34,615 nt of DNA from Thermoplasmata archaeon (GTDB lineage Archaea; Thermoplasmatota; Thermoplasmata; Methanomassiliicoccales; Methanomethylophilaceae). Positions within the stretch are counted from its first letter, which is position 1, and each line of letters opens with the position of its first letter. The notes below the pieces were generated by a model. That model had not been told where the DNA came from, did not search any database, and saw nothing but the letters and a program-made list of their open reading frames with translations. The position numbers and the translations under genes were made by a program. The stretch covers positions 1-34,615 of the forward strand of contig JAUNYA010000001.1 in assembly GCA_030539565.1 (NCBI GenBank), written 5' to 3'. Shown piece by piece: positions 30,948-33,804 of this stretch.

Positions 30948-31181
30948 ATGGACGAGAGCTACGGCAAGTGCAGGACGTGCAGGCTGTGCATGCACTCAGG
31001 GGACATGTGGGTGTGCGTCCCCGAATCCAGGCCGACCGGTCCCGACGCCGGGTGCGGAAGGTACCGCCCCGGATGCTGCGGTAGCTGCGCGTCGTGGGAG
31101 AAGGGGTTCTGCTCCGTCCACGGGTCCGAGATGGATTCCATCGACGTCTGCTCGGACTACGACCCGGCGGGGTCATTCCGA
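30948..31181 (+). CDS. Small Cys-rich protein (77 aa if ended at CGA)
   Basis: Two CxxC...C...C..Y units, 10 Cys; the standard-code frame continues antisense to the DUF5685 gene until TAG 32165. Confidence 0.6.
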
Positions 31182-32078
31182 GAGCCGCTTCTTCCTGTTG
31201 GACATCACATTCTTCACGCTGGCCTTGGCGCTGGCGTCGCCCGTCAGGACCCTCTTGGCCGACTCCGGGATGCCGAAGTACACCACGTTGTCGCAGAGGG
31301 ACACGTTGCCCCTCATGGACGGCCTGACCTTCGAGTAGGAGCCCTGCAGCGAGCCGACGGCGTCGCTGACCATGCCCGAGAGCCTGTAGATGTCGGAGTC
31401 CACGAACTTCCTGGCGTTGACGAACCCGGTCTCGGGGAGGAGGGGATTGTACGTGCCGTCCATGAAGTCGTCGTCCAGGTCGTCTATGGCGTCCATGATG
31501 TAGACGCACGCGGTGAGCTGGACGAAGACGTCGCCCAGATCGTCGGAGTAGACGTCGCCGGCGATGCCCTCCAGGGGCCCGGCCAGGCCCCTCCCGAACT
31601 CGCGGCCCATGTGCAGCGCGTCCCTGCAGCCGGCGAGCTCCATGTCCCTCAGGCGGGAGAACGCCTCGCCGACCATCTCGTCGTAGTCCGGATGCTCGGA
31701 TACGGCCTTCTCGATCGCCCTGTTGAGAACGAGCGATATCGCCTTGGTCTTCACCGACGGGAGGTCGGTCTCGTCGTCGTAGAGCTCCCATTTCGTGAGC
31801 ACGAGCGTGTAGGCGGCCATCCTGCGCATGAGCTCGGAGTCCGCCTTCGGCTTGTCGAGCACGCAGAGCTTCCTCGTGGTGCCGTCGAAGTCGGGGCACT
31901 CGGCCTTCAGGCCGTTGAGGAGGATCGTGTTGAACGTCATGTCGTAGTTGACCGTCGCCGTCCCCGTGAGGCCGTATCCGGCCTTCAGCTGGTGGCATCC
32001 CTCGCAGTAGTACCTCCGATACAGCCTGTTGTCCGTCGGGGAGAGCCTGCCGTAGGACGGCGTCGTGTAGCCGAACAT
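31173..32078 (-). CDS. DUF5685-like protein with two Asp-rich DDxxD motifs
   Basis: MFGY start, YYCEGCHQLK..YG, NYDMTF, YDDETD, DAIDDLDDD..GTYNP; purine-rich SD upstream. Confidence 0.8.
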   Translation of the reverse strand: MFGYTTPSYGRLSPTDNRLYRRYYCEGCHQLKAGYGLTGTATVNYDMTFNTILLNGLKAECPDFDGTTRKLCVLDKPKADSELMRRMAAYTLVLTKWELYDDETDLPSVKTKAISLVLNRAIEKAVSEHPDYDEMVGEAFSRLRDMELAGCRDALHMGREFGRGLAGPLEGIAGDVYSDDLGDVFVQLTACVYIMDAIDDLDDDFMDGTYNPLLPETGFVNARKFVDSDIYRLSGMVSDAVGSLQGSYSKVRPSMRGNVSLCDNVVYFGIPESAKRVLTGDASAKASVKNVMSNRKKRLSE

Positions 32079-32185
32079 CGCTCCTTCCTCTCCGGGGGCA
32101 TCCTCCTGGCGATGACCACGGACGCGCCGATGGCTATGACGAAGATCAGCGCGATGAGGATGTAGCCCAGGGTCACGTTGTCCAT
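32078..32185 (-). CDS. Small single-TM protein (35 aa if ended at CGA; 66 aa to 31985 in the standard code)
   Basis: MDNVTLGYILIALIFVIAIGASVVIARRMPPERKE; the next codon CGA shares its A with the DUF5685 ATG. Confidence 0.6.
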
Positions 32186-32319
32186 GCGACCGCAACGCCA
32201 GCGGGGTTAATAACAGGATTGCACGGGTCCTGTATATTTCTGGGGCGACGGACAATTATTAATATCCGCAAAGGTTCCGAAGCCCATCGGGCCAGCACTG
32301 GCGGGTGGATTGAAGCAAC

Positions 32320-32628
32320 ATGGCATACGACGCGAAATCCGTAGACGATCTGACAGCACTTTACGAGAGCCAGTCTCCGGCGGCTTTCATCGCCTTCGCG
32401 ATGGAGGGCCTCCCTCAGGACTACATCCACGACGAGCGCTTCGACAAGCCTGCGGACGAGGACCACGGCGGGGACTCCAAGTGCGACTACTGCTGCTGCT
32501 CCGACCGCGGATACTGCAACTCCATGGGATGGCACGCCTGCGTCGTGGGGACCGTCGTTGTCTGCTGCGCCTGCTGCTGCTACGTCACCAACGGATTCAA
32601 CGGCGTCTGGACCTACTGGCCCTTCTGA
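32320..32628 (+). CDS. Cys-rich peptide, candidate RiPP precursor / radical SAM substrate
   Basis: Acidic Cys-free residues 1-54, GG at 50-51, then 11 Cys in residues 55-87; ends 18 nt before the rSAM gene. Confidence 0.75.
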   Translation: MAYDAKSVDDLTALYESQSPAAFIAFAMEGLPQDYIHDERFDKPADEDHGGDSKCDYCCCSDRGYCNSMGWHACVVGTVVVCCACCCYVTNGFNGVWTYWPF

Positions 32629-32646
32629 GCCGCGACCCCCGCGGCA

Positions 32647-33804
32647 ATGAAGCCGTACATATCGGTCGTGGTCAAGCCGACCCTTTTCTGCAACGAATCC
32701 TGCAGCCATTGCTATCACACCCCCGAGGAGCGCGTCCCGGGGGAGATGGACATCGCCACCCTGGACCGCCTGATGAGGATGGTCTCCGAGGAGTACGAGT
32801 CCGCGTGGTTCATCTGGCACGGCGGGGAGCCGATGACCCTGCCGATGTCATTCTACAAGAACGCCATCGCCCTGGAGGAGAAGCACTTCGGGAAGAACTC
32901 CTTCCGCGTCGGGAACACCATCCAGACCAACGGCACCCTGCTGAACAGGCGCTTCATGGCCTACTGCAGGGAGAAGGCGATCAACGTGGGCGTCTCCTGC
33001 GAGGGCCCCTGCAACTCCGTCCTGAGGGAGCTGGATCCCTCCAAGGCGATCTCGATGCTCTCGGACAAGGACAACAAGTACTCCGTCAGCTCGACGATAT
33101 CGTCGCAGACCGCGCTGAGGCAGAGGGAGATCTACGAGTTCTACAGGGACCGCGGCACCAACCTGTCGCTGTCACCGGTGATCCCGGCGGGATGCGCCAA
33201 GGGCTCCGGGCTCGTTCCCGATCCGGACGAGTACATCCGCGGCAGCATAGAGGCGTTCGACGCCTGGCTCCACGACTCCGAGTCGAAGATCCCGCTGGTC
33301 CCGCATTACCTATATGTTCTCAACTACCTGGGCGACCCGACGCCGTCCGACTGCTCGCACGCGTCGTGCCTCACGAAGTGGATCTGCGTCAACCCCGACG
33401 GGACGATCTACCCGTGCGCCAAGGCGTGCCCGCCGGAGTTCGCCATGGGCAACGTCAACGAGATCGAACATCTCGCAGACGCGTTCCGCTCGGAGGGCTT
33501 CAGGAGGATCCTGGAGGGTTCCATCGCGCGCAGGGAGAAGTGCATGTCCTGCCCCGTGTACAGGAACTGCAACGGGGGCTGCTCGATGGACGCCTACCAC
33601 GACGGCGGCATCGAGAACAACAACGGCGACTCGTGCAGGATATTCCGCGAGGTGTTCGCCCACGTGTCCTCCGAGGTCCAGGCGATCCTGGACGGGGAGG
33701 AGGACGTGGCGTCGCTGAACCCGTTCGTCAGGGACGCCATCGTCGGCAAGCTGGTGAACCCCAGGACCGTCTCTCAGCGAGGCGTCCTTCCTATGTCGCT
33801 CTGA
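32647..33804 (+). CDS. Radical SAM/SPASM domain protein (anSME-like)
   Basis: [51 protein letters not shown]; first CGA at 33778-33780. Confidence 0.92.

What the first reader, a model, noticed from the sequence alone, without database searches (positions are those of the whole stretch)
30948..33804. Candidate archaeal RiPP-like system: 11-Cys precursor + rSAM/SPASM + divergent DDxxD protein and TM peptide
Seen: a 102-aa ORF with an acidic leader-like half ending DEDHGG and a core DSKCDYCCCSDRGYCNSMGWHACVVGTVVVCCACCCYVTNGFNGVWTYWPF, 18 nt upstream of a full SPASM radical SAM enzyme. A shared AT-rich intergenic box (AATTATTAATAT, about 32254-32265) faces a divergent TM peptide + DUF5685 pair, and a second Cys-rich ORF converges on them. 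Known: SPASM enzymes make thioether (sacti/ranthipeptide) or aromatic crosslinks in neighbouring peptides. No sulfatase, protease or exporter is in the window, and the enzyme has no N-terminal RRE extension. Inference: an undescribed crosslinked, perhaps membrane-anchored or lipidated peptide in a methanogen.
Basis: partly seen in the sequence, partly recalled or inferred. Interest (0 to 1): 0.85.

Follow-up and report, generated by a model that had tools for sequence, protein, structure and literature searches.

The report
Methanogen microprotein with two maturation enzymes
Nearly every genome of one family of methane-making archaea keeps a small cysteine-rich protein gene between a radical-SAM enzyme, predicted to grip the protein's front end and likely to crosslink it, and an unstudied prenyltransferase-shaped enzyme that would likely attach a lipid to it, an untested possible route to anchoring proteins in membranes.

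Summary
The core is real, but the system has three genes, not five. The 102-aa peptide and the rSAM/SPASM enzyme occur together, one copy each, in the same 111 of 119 family genomes; the peptide was found in 0 of 73 genomes of sister families. DUF5685 is divergent beside them in 37 of 37 loci. The TM ORF, the second Cys-rich ORF and the 'shared' AT box are not part of it. No sulfatase in 92 genomes. A model docks the peptide leader on the SPASM face (0.77, best control 0.00). Eight anSME-type SPASM cysteines and a Tyr-x-Thr/Ser in 75 of 75 peptides favour an aromatic crosslink over thioethers. DUF5685 has a trans-prenyltransferase fold, three invariant cysteines, and in Bacillota mostly sits beside cysteine-tailed proteins, so it likely prenylates cysteines. 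One lineage keeps an enzyme lacking the SAM-cluster motif. All chemistry is untested. The scan found this same trio before in another genome (e1-4133267), and the bacterial DUF5685 link several times. My ten paper searches found no description.

The parts
32320..32628 (+). Cys-rich microprotein, 102 aa: hydrophilic leader, Cys cluster 1, hydrophobic helix, Cys cluster 2, aromatic tail ending W-P-x-stop
   Evidence: invariant in 35 aligned rows: M1 Y15 Q18 C55 C59 C60 C86 Y88 G92 W100 P101
32338..32379 (+). Leader helix, residues 7-20 (Y15-x-x-Q18), predicted to dock on rSAM residues 240-309
   Evidence: score 0.77, best control 0.00
32536..32592 (+). Hydrophobic segment, residues 73-91, membrane-helix length; no N-terminal signal peptide
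   Evidence: 19-residue hydropathy 1.96, N-terminal windows at most 0.69
32581..32589 (+). Tyr88-Val-Thr90: aromatic-x-Thr/Ser motif, candidate crosslink site
   Evidence: Thr 65, Ser 10 of 75 complete distinct peptides
32647..33804 (+). Radical SAM/SPASM enzyme, 385 aa, no RRE; C15/19/22; SPASM C236, 241, 257, 299, 302, 308, 312, 330 plus C261
   Evidence: each Cys 36 of 36 orthologues
31173..32078 (-). DUF5685 protein, 301 aa, trans-isoprenyl diphosphate synthase fold; D101-x3-D105, D196-x3-D200-x3-D204, invariant C25/C28/C72
32254..32265 (+). TATA-like box of the peptide-rSAM transcript
   Evidence: same position in relatives; function inferred
32283..32309 (+). 5' UTR hairpin abutting the ribosome-binding site of the peptide gene
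   Evidence: hairpin predicted in 24 of 24 relatives, z below -1.5 in 17 of 24; no consensus structure on a MAFFT alignment
32629..32645 (+). Hairpin in the peptide-rSAM spacer
   Evidence: -12.2 kcal/mol; inverted repeats visible in the longer spacers of several relatives
32207..32213 (-). Separate TATA-like box for the minus-strand (TM ORF/DUF5685) transcript
   Evidence: sequence; function inferred
31985..32185 (-).
   Evidence: only own locus and two other genomes
30948..31190 (+). Second Cys-rich ORF (CxxC-rich, zinc-finger-like pattern); a neighbour, NOT part of the conserved unit; no stop codon here
   Evidence: 22 of 37 loci

Best explanation
Three genes form a conserved, single-copy unit in which the radical SAM enzyme is predicted to bind the microprotein's leader helix and likely crosslinks its tail (most likely Tyr88 ring to the Thr/Ser90 beta carbon), while the prenyltransferase-fold DUF5685 enzyme likely transfers an isoprenyl chain to one or more cysteines, giving a product that would stay in the cell's own membrane. 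Shown: co-occurrence, synteny, conserved residues, absence of sulfatases. Predicted: DUF5685 fold, leader docking. Inferred, with my odds: the three genes act together (0.9); the rSAM protein binds the peptide (0.85); where its SAM motif is intact it modifies the peptide (0.75), by an aromatic crosslink (0.45) rather than thioether (0.35) or other chemistry (0.2); DUF5685 prenylates the peptide (0.45), on Cys rather than Trp (3 to 1), with C25/C28/C72 holding a zinc that activates the thiol. The rSAM protein would also serve as the carrier that holds the hydrophobic substrate, which would explain why a form without the SAM cluster is kept.
For: Peptide and rSAM in the same 111 of 119 family genomes, one peptide match each; peptide in 124 of 138 family and 0 of 73 other-family genomes of the order; DUF5685 in 39 of 40 family genomes and over cut-off in 1 of 260 others of the phylum, missing in 5 of 5 tested genomes that lack the pair; DUF divergent beside the pair in 37 of 37 loci while other neighbours drop to 22 or fewer. 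Docking: 0.77 versus best of three controls 0.00; mark reached by 116 of 157 solved and 2 of 215 mismatched pairs; runs share at least 34% of contacts; partner pLDDT 36-38; contacts use invariant Y15/Q18 and conserved S240, L242, F280, L289, R296. Eight SPASM Cys align with the anSME ligands; a review ties fully ligated auxiliary clusters to C-C crosslinkers, unlike sacti/ranthisynthases (PMC8326336, passages). Nearest NCBIfam model is the RRE-less aromatic crosslinker DynA, with cyclophane formers GrrM/OscB, AmcB, YhhB in the top 11 (6). Y-x-T/S in 75 of 75; triceptide links are aromatic(i) to C-beta(i+2), Ser and Tyr included (PMC11002830, passages). DUF5685 model pLDDT 88.7, best Z 15.8, rmsd 3.4, 249 aligned, top rows all prenyltransferases. 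C25, C28, C72, D101, E147, Y193, D196, D200, N211 invariant in 32 archaeal plus 31 bacterial rows. Bacterial DUF5685: Cys-tailed J-domain ORF downstream in 77 of 80 close-kin loci; in 30 diverse Bacillota loci 25 downstream Cys tails, 1 fused tail, 1 contig end, 3 none; 20 of 32 tails have no Trp in the last 40 residues.
Against: No chemistry is shown. All NCBIfam scores are far below cut-off (DynA 161 of 450 bits), so they do not fix the reaction. Foldseek gave no hit at E 0.001 or better (best MoeN5, 0.019) and helical proteins reach Z 13-14 by common arrangement; a fold shows no function. All characterised trans-IDS-like peptide prenyltransferases act on Trp (PMC13290415 section 2.4), and W100 is invariant. 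The archaeal core and bacterial tails are not detectably homologous. The three adjacent genes can vanish in one assembly gap, so joint absence is weak, and kin genomes are not independent. The zinc site is inferred from sequence only. The docking may reflect memory of SuiB-like complexes, and the job was unlike the calibration (three chains). The lineage without CX3CX2C keeps Y-x-S and all Cys clusters in its peptide, which no crosslink model needs.
Confidence: 0.35

Rival explanations
1. The peptide is not prenylated. It is a membrane-bound metal- or Fe-S-binding partner or carrier, the rSAM protein is its stable partner, and DUF5685 acts on a lipid or small molecule as MoeN5 does.
For: 8-13 Cys per peptide in two clusters; MoeN5 is the best Foldseek row; the SAM-less protein keeps all eight auxiliary Cys and the leader-binding face; single-copy core distribution fits housekeeping.
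Against: Leader/core layout with a leader docking site is typical of substrates; CX3CX2C is intact in 36 of 36 other orthologues and 10 of 10 more; Cys spacing varies between lineages, unlike most metal sites; DUF5685 follows Cys tails on unrelated carriers.
Confidence: 0.25
2. One reading: the rSAM installs Cys thioethers (sacti/ranthionine) in the Cys clusters, with or without lipidation by DUF5685.
For: 11 Cys with C55, C59, C60, C86 invariant; a methanogen SPASM enzyme, CrpC, makes ranthionines in a Cys-rich protein (PMC13692751, sections 8, 9, 13, 14).
Against: CrpC has an RRE and seven SPASM Cys with an open site; this enzyme has no RRE and eight plus one; scores to thioether models are lower (PapB 59, SCIFF 57, TIGR04463 33 bits); residues next to the invariant Cys are not conserved acceptors.
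Confidence: 0.2
3. DUF5685 is a ComQ/PalQ-like Trp prenyltransferase acting on W100, giving a ComX-like prenylated signal after cleavage.
For: W-P-x-stop in 74 of 76 distinct peptides (one run-on, one truncated); trans-IDS fold; known members act on Trp (62).
Against: The Gln upstream of the second Asp motif, the Trp-recognition residue in that review, is Tyr193 in 63 of 63 by an ungapped by-eye register with the genome's own IDS; 20 of 32 bacterial partner tails lack Trp (67); no conserved protease or exporter among the window neighbours tested.
Confidence: 0.12
4. The enzyme is an anaerobic sulfatase maturase and the peptide a bystander.
For: Best PDB sequence hit is anSME, E 3e-26; TIGR03942 second-best model.
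Against: 0 of 92 family genomes have PF00884 while 10 of 14 controls ring; anSME Asp277 is Ala/Gly/Ser here (its catalytic role is recalled); 142 bits against a cut-off of 349; peptide adjacent in every locus examined.
Confidence: 0.02

Closest known systems
RRE-less aromatic-crosslinking rSAM/SPASM maturases: dynobactin DynA (NF041298), triceptide 3-CyFEs (GrrM/OscB, AmcB, YhhB, ChlB 9GM3)
   Same: No RRE, SPASM domain, small adjacent precursor, aromatic-x-x motif in the core; best profile scores, ChlB third PDB hit.
   Different: Scores far under cut-off; archaeal, single-copy and family-wide; core is Cys-rich with a membrane-length helix; third gene is a prenyltransferase-fold protein; no conserved exporter or protease seen.
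SuiB (streptide-type C-C crosslinker)
   Same: Leader as a helix bound at the barrel-SPASM bridging region, fully ligated auxiliary clusters (PMC8326336 passages; model).
   Different: SuiB has an RRE; no sequence hit at E 0.001; different substrate.
CrpABC of Methanococcus voltae (TIGR04463; PMC13692751)
   Same: Methanogen SPASM enzyme beside a Cys-rich protein with an N-terminal leader.
   Different: RRE, seven SPASM Cys, repeat substrate, ranthionines; 33 bits against 525 here; no DUF5685 named.
Trans-IDS-like peptide prenyltransferases ComQ/ComX, PalQ, ChrPC P domain (PMC13290415)
   Same: Isoprenoid synthase fold with two Asp-rich motifs beside a peptide with Trp near its C-terminus.
   Different: Tyr at the Gln position, three invariant Cys, partners in bacteria often without Trp; coupled to an rSAM.
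Bacillota DUF5685 plus J-domain Cys-tail operon (uncharacterised)
   Same: Same Pfam family with the same invariant residues, always beside or fused to a Cys-rich C-terminal segment.
   Different: No rSAM motif ORF in 82 bacterial loci; carrier is a J/TPR protein; tails not detectably homologous to the archaeal core.
Anaerobic sulfatase maturase anSME (4K36-4K39)
   Same: Length, no RRE, eight auxiliary Cys in register.
   Different: No Asp277, extra C261, no sulfatase in the family.

Membership tests
Anaerobic sulfatase maturase | Sulfatase substrate encoded in the genome | tested here: not met
   0 of 92 family genomes, control 10 of 14
Anaerobic sulfatase maturase | Asp after the third auxiliary Cys (D277) and TIGR03942 cut-off | tested here: not met
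   Ala/Gly/Ser in 36 orthologues; 142 of 349 bits; role of D277 recalled
Sactipeptide/ranthipeptide maturases | Cys-rich precursor next to an rSAM/SPASM enzyme | tested here: met
Sactipeptide/ranthipeptide maturases | N-terminal RRE and an auxiliary cluster with an open site (seven Cys) | tested here: not met
   CX3CX2C at residue 15; eight anSME-type Cys plus C261; feature from PMC8326336 and PMC13692751
Sactipeptide/ranthipeptide maturases | Thioether bond in the product | not testable with these tools
   needs MS with alkylation and desulfurisation
Triceptides (3-CyFE) | Conserved aromatic-x-x motif in the core | tested here: met
   Y-x-T/S in 75 of 75; definition from PMC11002830
Triceptides (3-CyFE) | Enzyme reaches a 3-CyFE or DynA family cut-off | tested here: not met
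   DynA 161/450, GrrM-OscB 92/310, AmcB 79/425, YhhB 66/445 bits
Triceptides (3-CyFE) | Aromatic(i)-C-beta(i+2) crosslink | not testable with these tools
   needs MS/MS and NMR
TIGR04083 methanogen peptide-modifying rSAM | Model cut-off 300 bits | tested here: not met
   107 bits
CrpC / TIGR04463 | RRE and model cut-off 525 bits | tested here: not met
   33 bits, no RRE
Isoprenoid synthase superfamily (DUF5685) | All-helical trans-IDS fold with two Asp-rich motifs | tested here: met
   Z 15.8, rmsd 3.4, 249 aligned; motifs conserved; Foldseek only E 0.019
Chain-elongating trans-IDS | Arg-Arg after the first motif and Gln-x-x-Asp-Asp second motif | tested here: not met
   present in the genome's own IDS, absent in DUF5685; importance of these residues recalled
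ComQ/PalQ/ChrPC Trp prenyltransferases | Conserved Gln just upstream of the second Asp-rich motif | tested here: inconclusive
   Tyr193 in 63 of 63 at that place by a by-eye register; hhalign could not confirm the register
ComQ/PalQ/ChrPC Trp prenyltransferases | Neighbouring peptide with conserved Trp near the C-terminus | tested here: met
   W-P-x-stop in 74 of 76 archaeal peptides; not met in 20 of 32 bacterial partners
ComQ/PalQ/ChrPC Trp prenyltransferases | Prenyl transfer to Trp | not testable with these tools
   needs an assay

The most novel reading that the evidence does not exclude
DUF5685 is a prokaryotic protein cysteine prenyltransferase built on the isoprenoid-synthase fold with a three-cysteine zinc site, used across Bacillota on J-domain cysteine strings and in this archaeal family on a dedicated microprotein; there the rSAM protein is first a leader-binding carrier that presents the hydrophobic core and only second a crosslinker, so the product is a crosslinked, multiply prenylated membrane microprotein that a whole methanogen family keeps as a core trait.
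Probability: 0.27. Interest if true: 0.92.

Novelty: new variant of a known kind. Interest (0 to 1): 0.7.

Why it matters
Peptide-maturase clusters are usually patchy; this one is single-copy in about 93% of the genomes of one methanogen family and was not found in its sister families, so it marks a family-defining function nobody has described. It offers the simplest test case for DUF5685, a widespread unstudied enzyme family: a 102-residue dedicated substrate. If DUF5685 prenylates cysteines, that is a protein-lipidation route outside the three prenyltransferase classes of a 2026 review (PMC13290415), in which this fold acts only on Trp. The natural SAM-less variant separates the enzyme's binding role from its radical role. 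The family includes rumen and gut methanogens (from the papers' abstracts), so an essential family-specific pathway could be a methane-mitigation target.

Tried and rejected
1) 'TGA inside' flags in rSAM matches: they are the normal gene ends, not recoding. 2) First DUF5685 Pfam/NCBIfam/tblastn query was one base out of frame; corrected. 3) DUF5685 folded without alignment: pLDDT 33, discarded. 4) DUF5685 profile against PDB sequences: nothing below E 0.06. 5) Homology of archaeal core and bacterial tails, which looked plausible by eye: in six profile comparisons 34, 7, 44, 1, 29 and 15 of 60 column shuffles reached the score; rejected. 6) Oscillospiraceae as donor, suggested by FastTree: not supported; archaeal clade 100/100 on a long branch, sister unresolved; 41 of 64 rows used, near-duplicates dropped. 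7) hhalign of DUF5685 with the genome's IDS: no alignment. 8) Complex model: no confident DUF5685-peptide contact, and the score fell to 0.00 when the rSAM was replaced; this is no support and no evidence against binding. 9) Distant peptide relatives: profile search of 1.84 billion representatives gave 7 hits, six family-type and one spurious repeat protein; Atlas no usable hit. 10) Metagenome scan for the locus of P0170: one weak 37-residue match only, so its neighbours are unseen. 11) RNA runs: no RNA holder listed. 12) Consensus fold of the 5' UTR: none on the MAFFT alignment. 13) Geranylgeranyl-reductase-like and phospholipase-D genes 2.5-5 kb from DUF5685: 1 and 0 of 37 loci, partly at or past the edge of the loci; not linked as far as tested. 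14) Distant rSAM matches (G054, G060, second G100 copy): no such peptide or DUF5685 beside them. 15) Literature: 'DUF5685' 1 paper, listing only; Methanomassiliicoccales + radical SAM + RiPP 0 (32); Methanomethylophilaceae + radical SAM 1, listing only, on phages; ChlB search 0 (81); main-text term searches of PMC7883539 and PMC10804542 no hits, supplements not searched.
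Full report
OBSERVATION. The peptide ORF (32320-32628, +, 102 aa, 11 Cys), the rSAM/SPASM gene 18 nt downstream (32647-33804) and the divergent DUF5685 gene (31173-32078, -) are present as described. Named homologues are from Candidatus Methanoprimaticola, Methanoplasma and Methanomethylophilaceae, so I infer that family of Methanomassiliicoccales. The peptide has no Pfam or NCBIfam match but is a real gene: 40 homologues, coding-type GC3, third-position bias and an SD motif in 24 of 24 relatives.

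WHAT BELONGS TOGETHER. The rSAM matches at E 1e-10 or better in 111 of 119 family genomes and the peptide profile in the same 111, one match each, directly upstream. In the order the peptide is in 124 of 138 family genomes and 0 of 73 genomes of six other families. DUF5685 is in 39 of 40 family genomes and over cut-off in 1 of 260 other genomes of the phylum; 5 of the 8 genomes lacking the pair were tested and lack it too, though one assembly gap could remove all three. I fetched about 5 kb either side of the rSAM for 37 of the 111 genomes, chosen across genera. DUF5685 is present and divergent in 37 of 37, in several cases across 1-3.5 kb insertions; the second Cys-rich ORF and metA are in 22, prephenate dehydratase in 8. 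The TM ORF occurs in two other genomes only. Each direction has its own TATA-like box. So the unit is DUF5685 (-), peptide (+), rSAM (+).

THE PEPTIDE. Layout: hydrophilic leader with invariant Y15-x-x-Q18; Cys cluster C55..Y57-x-C59-C60; a hydrophobic stretch (residues 73-91, hydropathy 1.96, no signal peptide); C86-x-Y88; tail ending W100-P101-x. Among 76 distinct peptides from my loci, Tyr88 is followed two residues on by Thr (65) or Ser (10), one being truncated; 74 end W-P-x-stop, one runs on, one is truncated. It is the only ORF with such a tail in this 69%-complete genome. No convincing relative outside the family was found.

THE rSAM ENZYME. CX3CX2C is intact in 36 of 36 orthologues aligned and 10 of 10 more. 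Eight SPASM cysteines align with the anSME ligands; a ninth, C261, is invariant in those 36; anSME Asp277 is replaced by Ala, Gly or Ser. With no sulfatase in 92 family genomes (control 10 of 14), the sulfatase-maturase reading fails. No NCBIfam model reaches cut-off; the order is DynA, anSME, TIGR04083, then cyclophane and darobactin enzymes, with thioether enzymes lower. A review states that sacti/ranthisynthases use an open auxiliary site while C-C crosslinkers such as SuiB have fully ligated clusters and that SuiB binds its leader as a helix at the barrel-SPASM bridge (PMC8326336, passages). Triceptide enzymes link an aromatic residue to the beta carbon two residues on (PMC11002830, passages). 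Together with Y-x-T/S this tilts me to an aromatic crosslink; it is an inference, and eight cysteines do not exclude thioethers.

LEADER DOCKING. A three-chain model (rSAM, DUF5685, peptide; own alignments) scored 0.71, 0.77, 0.80, best of three controls 0.00; the mark was reached by 116 of 157 solved and 2 of 215 mismatched pairs, counts that hold only roughly for this job; runs share at least 34% of contacts; peptide pLDDT 36-38. Confident contacts are peptide 7-20 on rSAM 240-309, including invariant Y15 and Q18 and conserved S240, L242, F280, L289, R296. It supports binding, may echo solved SuiB-like complexes, and shows no chemistry.

A SAM-LESS VARIANT. In G063 (94% complete) the gene after the peptide has lost CX3CX2C and the GGE motif in an open frame; it is that genome's only match. 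The identical protein is on record from two contigs (P0169) and a second protein 55% identical shows the same loss (P0170). Both hit only the SPASM Pfam, keep all eight auxiliary cysteines and the main leader-contact residues, and are more alike in SPASM (65%) than in the barrel (46-53%). G063 keeps peptide and DUF5685. P0170's neighbours are unseen. I infer that the protein has a binding or redox role that survives loss of radical chemistry, and that crosslinking is not the indispensable step everywhere. NCBIfam lists a haloarchaeal pseudo-SAM/SPASM family as a named parallel (TIGR04347).

DUF5685. The alignment-based model (32 rows, pLDDT 88.7) matches trans-isoprenyl diphosphate synthases and MoeN5 (best Z 15.8, rmsd 3.4, 249 residues; MoeN5 13.7); Foldseek ranks MoeN5 first at E 0.019, none significant. 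In 32 archaeal and 31 bacterial rows C25, C28, C72, D101, E147, Y193, D196, D200 and N211 are invariant, D105 and D204 in 62 of 63. It lacks the Arg pair and the Gln of the genome's own IDS; by eye Tyr193 stands at the Gln position (hhalign could not confirm). A 2026 review says all characterised peptide prenyltransferases of this fold act on Trp and use that Gln (PMC13290415, abstract, section 2.4 and term search). In bacteria DUF5685 is followed by a J-domain ORF with 6-8 Cys in its last 35 residues in 77 of 80 close-kin loci, with no rSAM motif ORF in 82 loci; in the 30 best of 38 places from 300 Bacillota genomes, 25 have a downstream Cys-tailed protein, 1 a fused Cys tail, 1 ends at the contig edge, 3 have none. 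Twenty of 32 tails have no Trp in the last 40 residues. The constant across domains is thus a Cys-rich C-terminal segment on different carriers. These segments are not detectably homologous, and the donor of the archaeal clade is unresolved. Three invariant cysteines could hold a zinc that activates an acceptor thiol, as in eukaryotic farnesyltransferase (recalled); their closeness in space was not measured.

MECHANISM, STEP BY STEP. Shown: linkage, conservation, motifs. Predicted: fold and leader docking. Inferred: peptide made in excess from a transcript with hairpins at both ends of its gene; leader held by the SPASM face; radical crosslink at Y88-x-T90; prenylation of cluster cysteines by DUF5685 using the cell's isoprenyl diphosphates; retention in the membrane, since no signal peptide and no linked exporter or protease was seen. 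The biological role is open; family-wide single-copy retention fits a housekeeping membrane role better than an antibiotic. Whole-model confidence 0.35; rivals: no peptide prenylation, metal or carrier role 0.25; thioethers 0.2; Trp prenylation 0.12; sulfatase maturase 0.02.

PRIOR WORK. Ten searches found no description of this locus; subscription journals are largely outside the library. The closest paper, PMC13692751 (abstract, sections 8, 9, 13, 14, term searches of text and three supplements), describes CrpC, a different RRE-bearing enzyme, and names no Methanomassiliicoccales taxon or DUF5685. Its screen (at least 100 aa, 10% Cys, adjacent rSAM) could have caught this peptide: Table S4 lists two enzymes under TIGR03942 and Figure S3 is a picture I could not read, so a bare listing is not excluded. 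This scan already reported the same trio in another genome (e1-4133267) and the bacterial DUF5685-Cys-tail link in several notes; these are unchecked AI notes, not support. I had reached the same reading before opening them; one gave me the lead to PMC13290415. I saw only their short listings, which do not mention the leader docking, the Y-x-T/S motif or the SAM-less variant.

VERDICT. Real, conserved, uncharacterised three-gene system; a new variant of rSAM peptide maturation with a candidate new lipidation enzyme. Interest 0.7.

Noticed in passing
L050:4997-6100 (-) (G063:C19); P0169, P0170: rSAM orthologue without CX3CX2C and GGE but with all eight SPASM cysteines, still between-and-after peptide and DUF5685; a second such protein is 55% identical.
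   Followed up: yes
window 32283-32309 and 24 relatives: Hairpin of variable sequence directly 5' of the peptide's SD motif (z below -1.5 in 17 of 24), and a second hairpin in the peptide-rSAM spacer, with a recurring TGCATCGT-type loop in the longer spacers. May stabilise the peptide message.
   Followed up: partly
L049:3704-6231 (-) (G100:C6): Tandem pair of other rSAM/SPASM genes, one 31% identical to this enzyme, one with an N-terminal extension nearest TIGR04463/CefB; no precursor identified in the short upstream stretch.
   Followed up: partly
L083:5638-7426 (-) (G320:C14): The only strong DUF5685 hit outside the family in the phylum; followed by a 318-aa protein with an N-terminal hydrophobic stretch and a short Cys cluster, no Pfam match; no rSAM.
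   Followed up: partly
L197:1501-2631 (+): Bacillota DUF5685 with its own fused His- and Cys-rich C-terminal tail.
   Followed up: partly
L188:2400-2840, L189:2511-2969 (+): DUF5685 partners of about 150 aa with the Cys tail but no J-domain match (TPR-like only).
   Followed up: partly
window 30948-31190 (+): Small CxxC-rich ORF, 77-78 aa in two relatives, here and in L066 without a stop and running antisense into DUF5685; no family over cut-off.
   Followed up: partly
window 26147-28665 (+): Phospholipase-D (cardiolipin-synthase-like) and geranylgeranyl-reductase-like genes near the trio; not linked in the loci tested.
   Followed up: partly
window 28655-29251 (+): Protein of three to four zinc-ribbon repeats with a C-terminal HTH-like end; in 14 of 37 loci.
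   Followed up: no
window 23455-24591 (-) and 24720-26012 (-): Ntn-hydrolase/AAT-family protein with an N-terminal hydrophobic anchor, next to a zinc-ribbon-led 430-aa protein without Pfam match.
   Followed up: no
L015, L016, L017, L024, between DUF5685 and the peptide: A 600-680 nt intergenic stretch with a shared internal block that encodes a short hydrophobic minus-strand frame; may be a small membrane-protein gene or RNA.
   Followed up: no
L055 (G088:C2): Peptide frame runs on past the usual end without a stop.
   Followed up: no
control genomes: Thermotoga maritima carries a DUF5685 over cut-off, a culturable model for testing the family.
   Followed up: no
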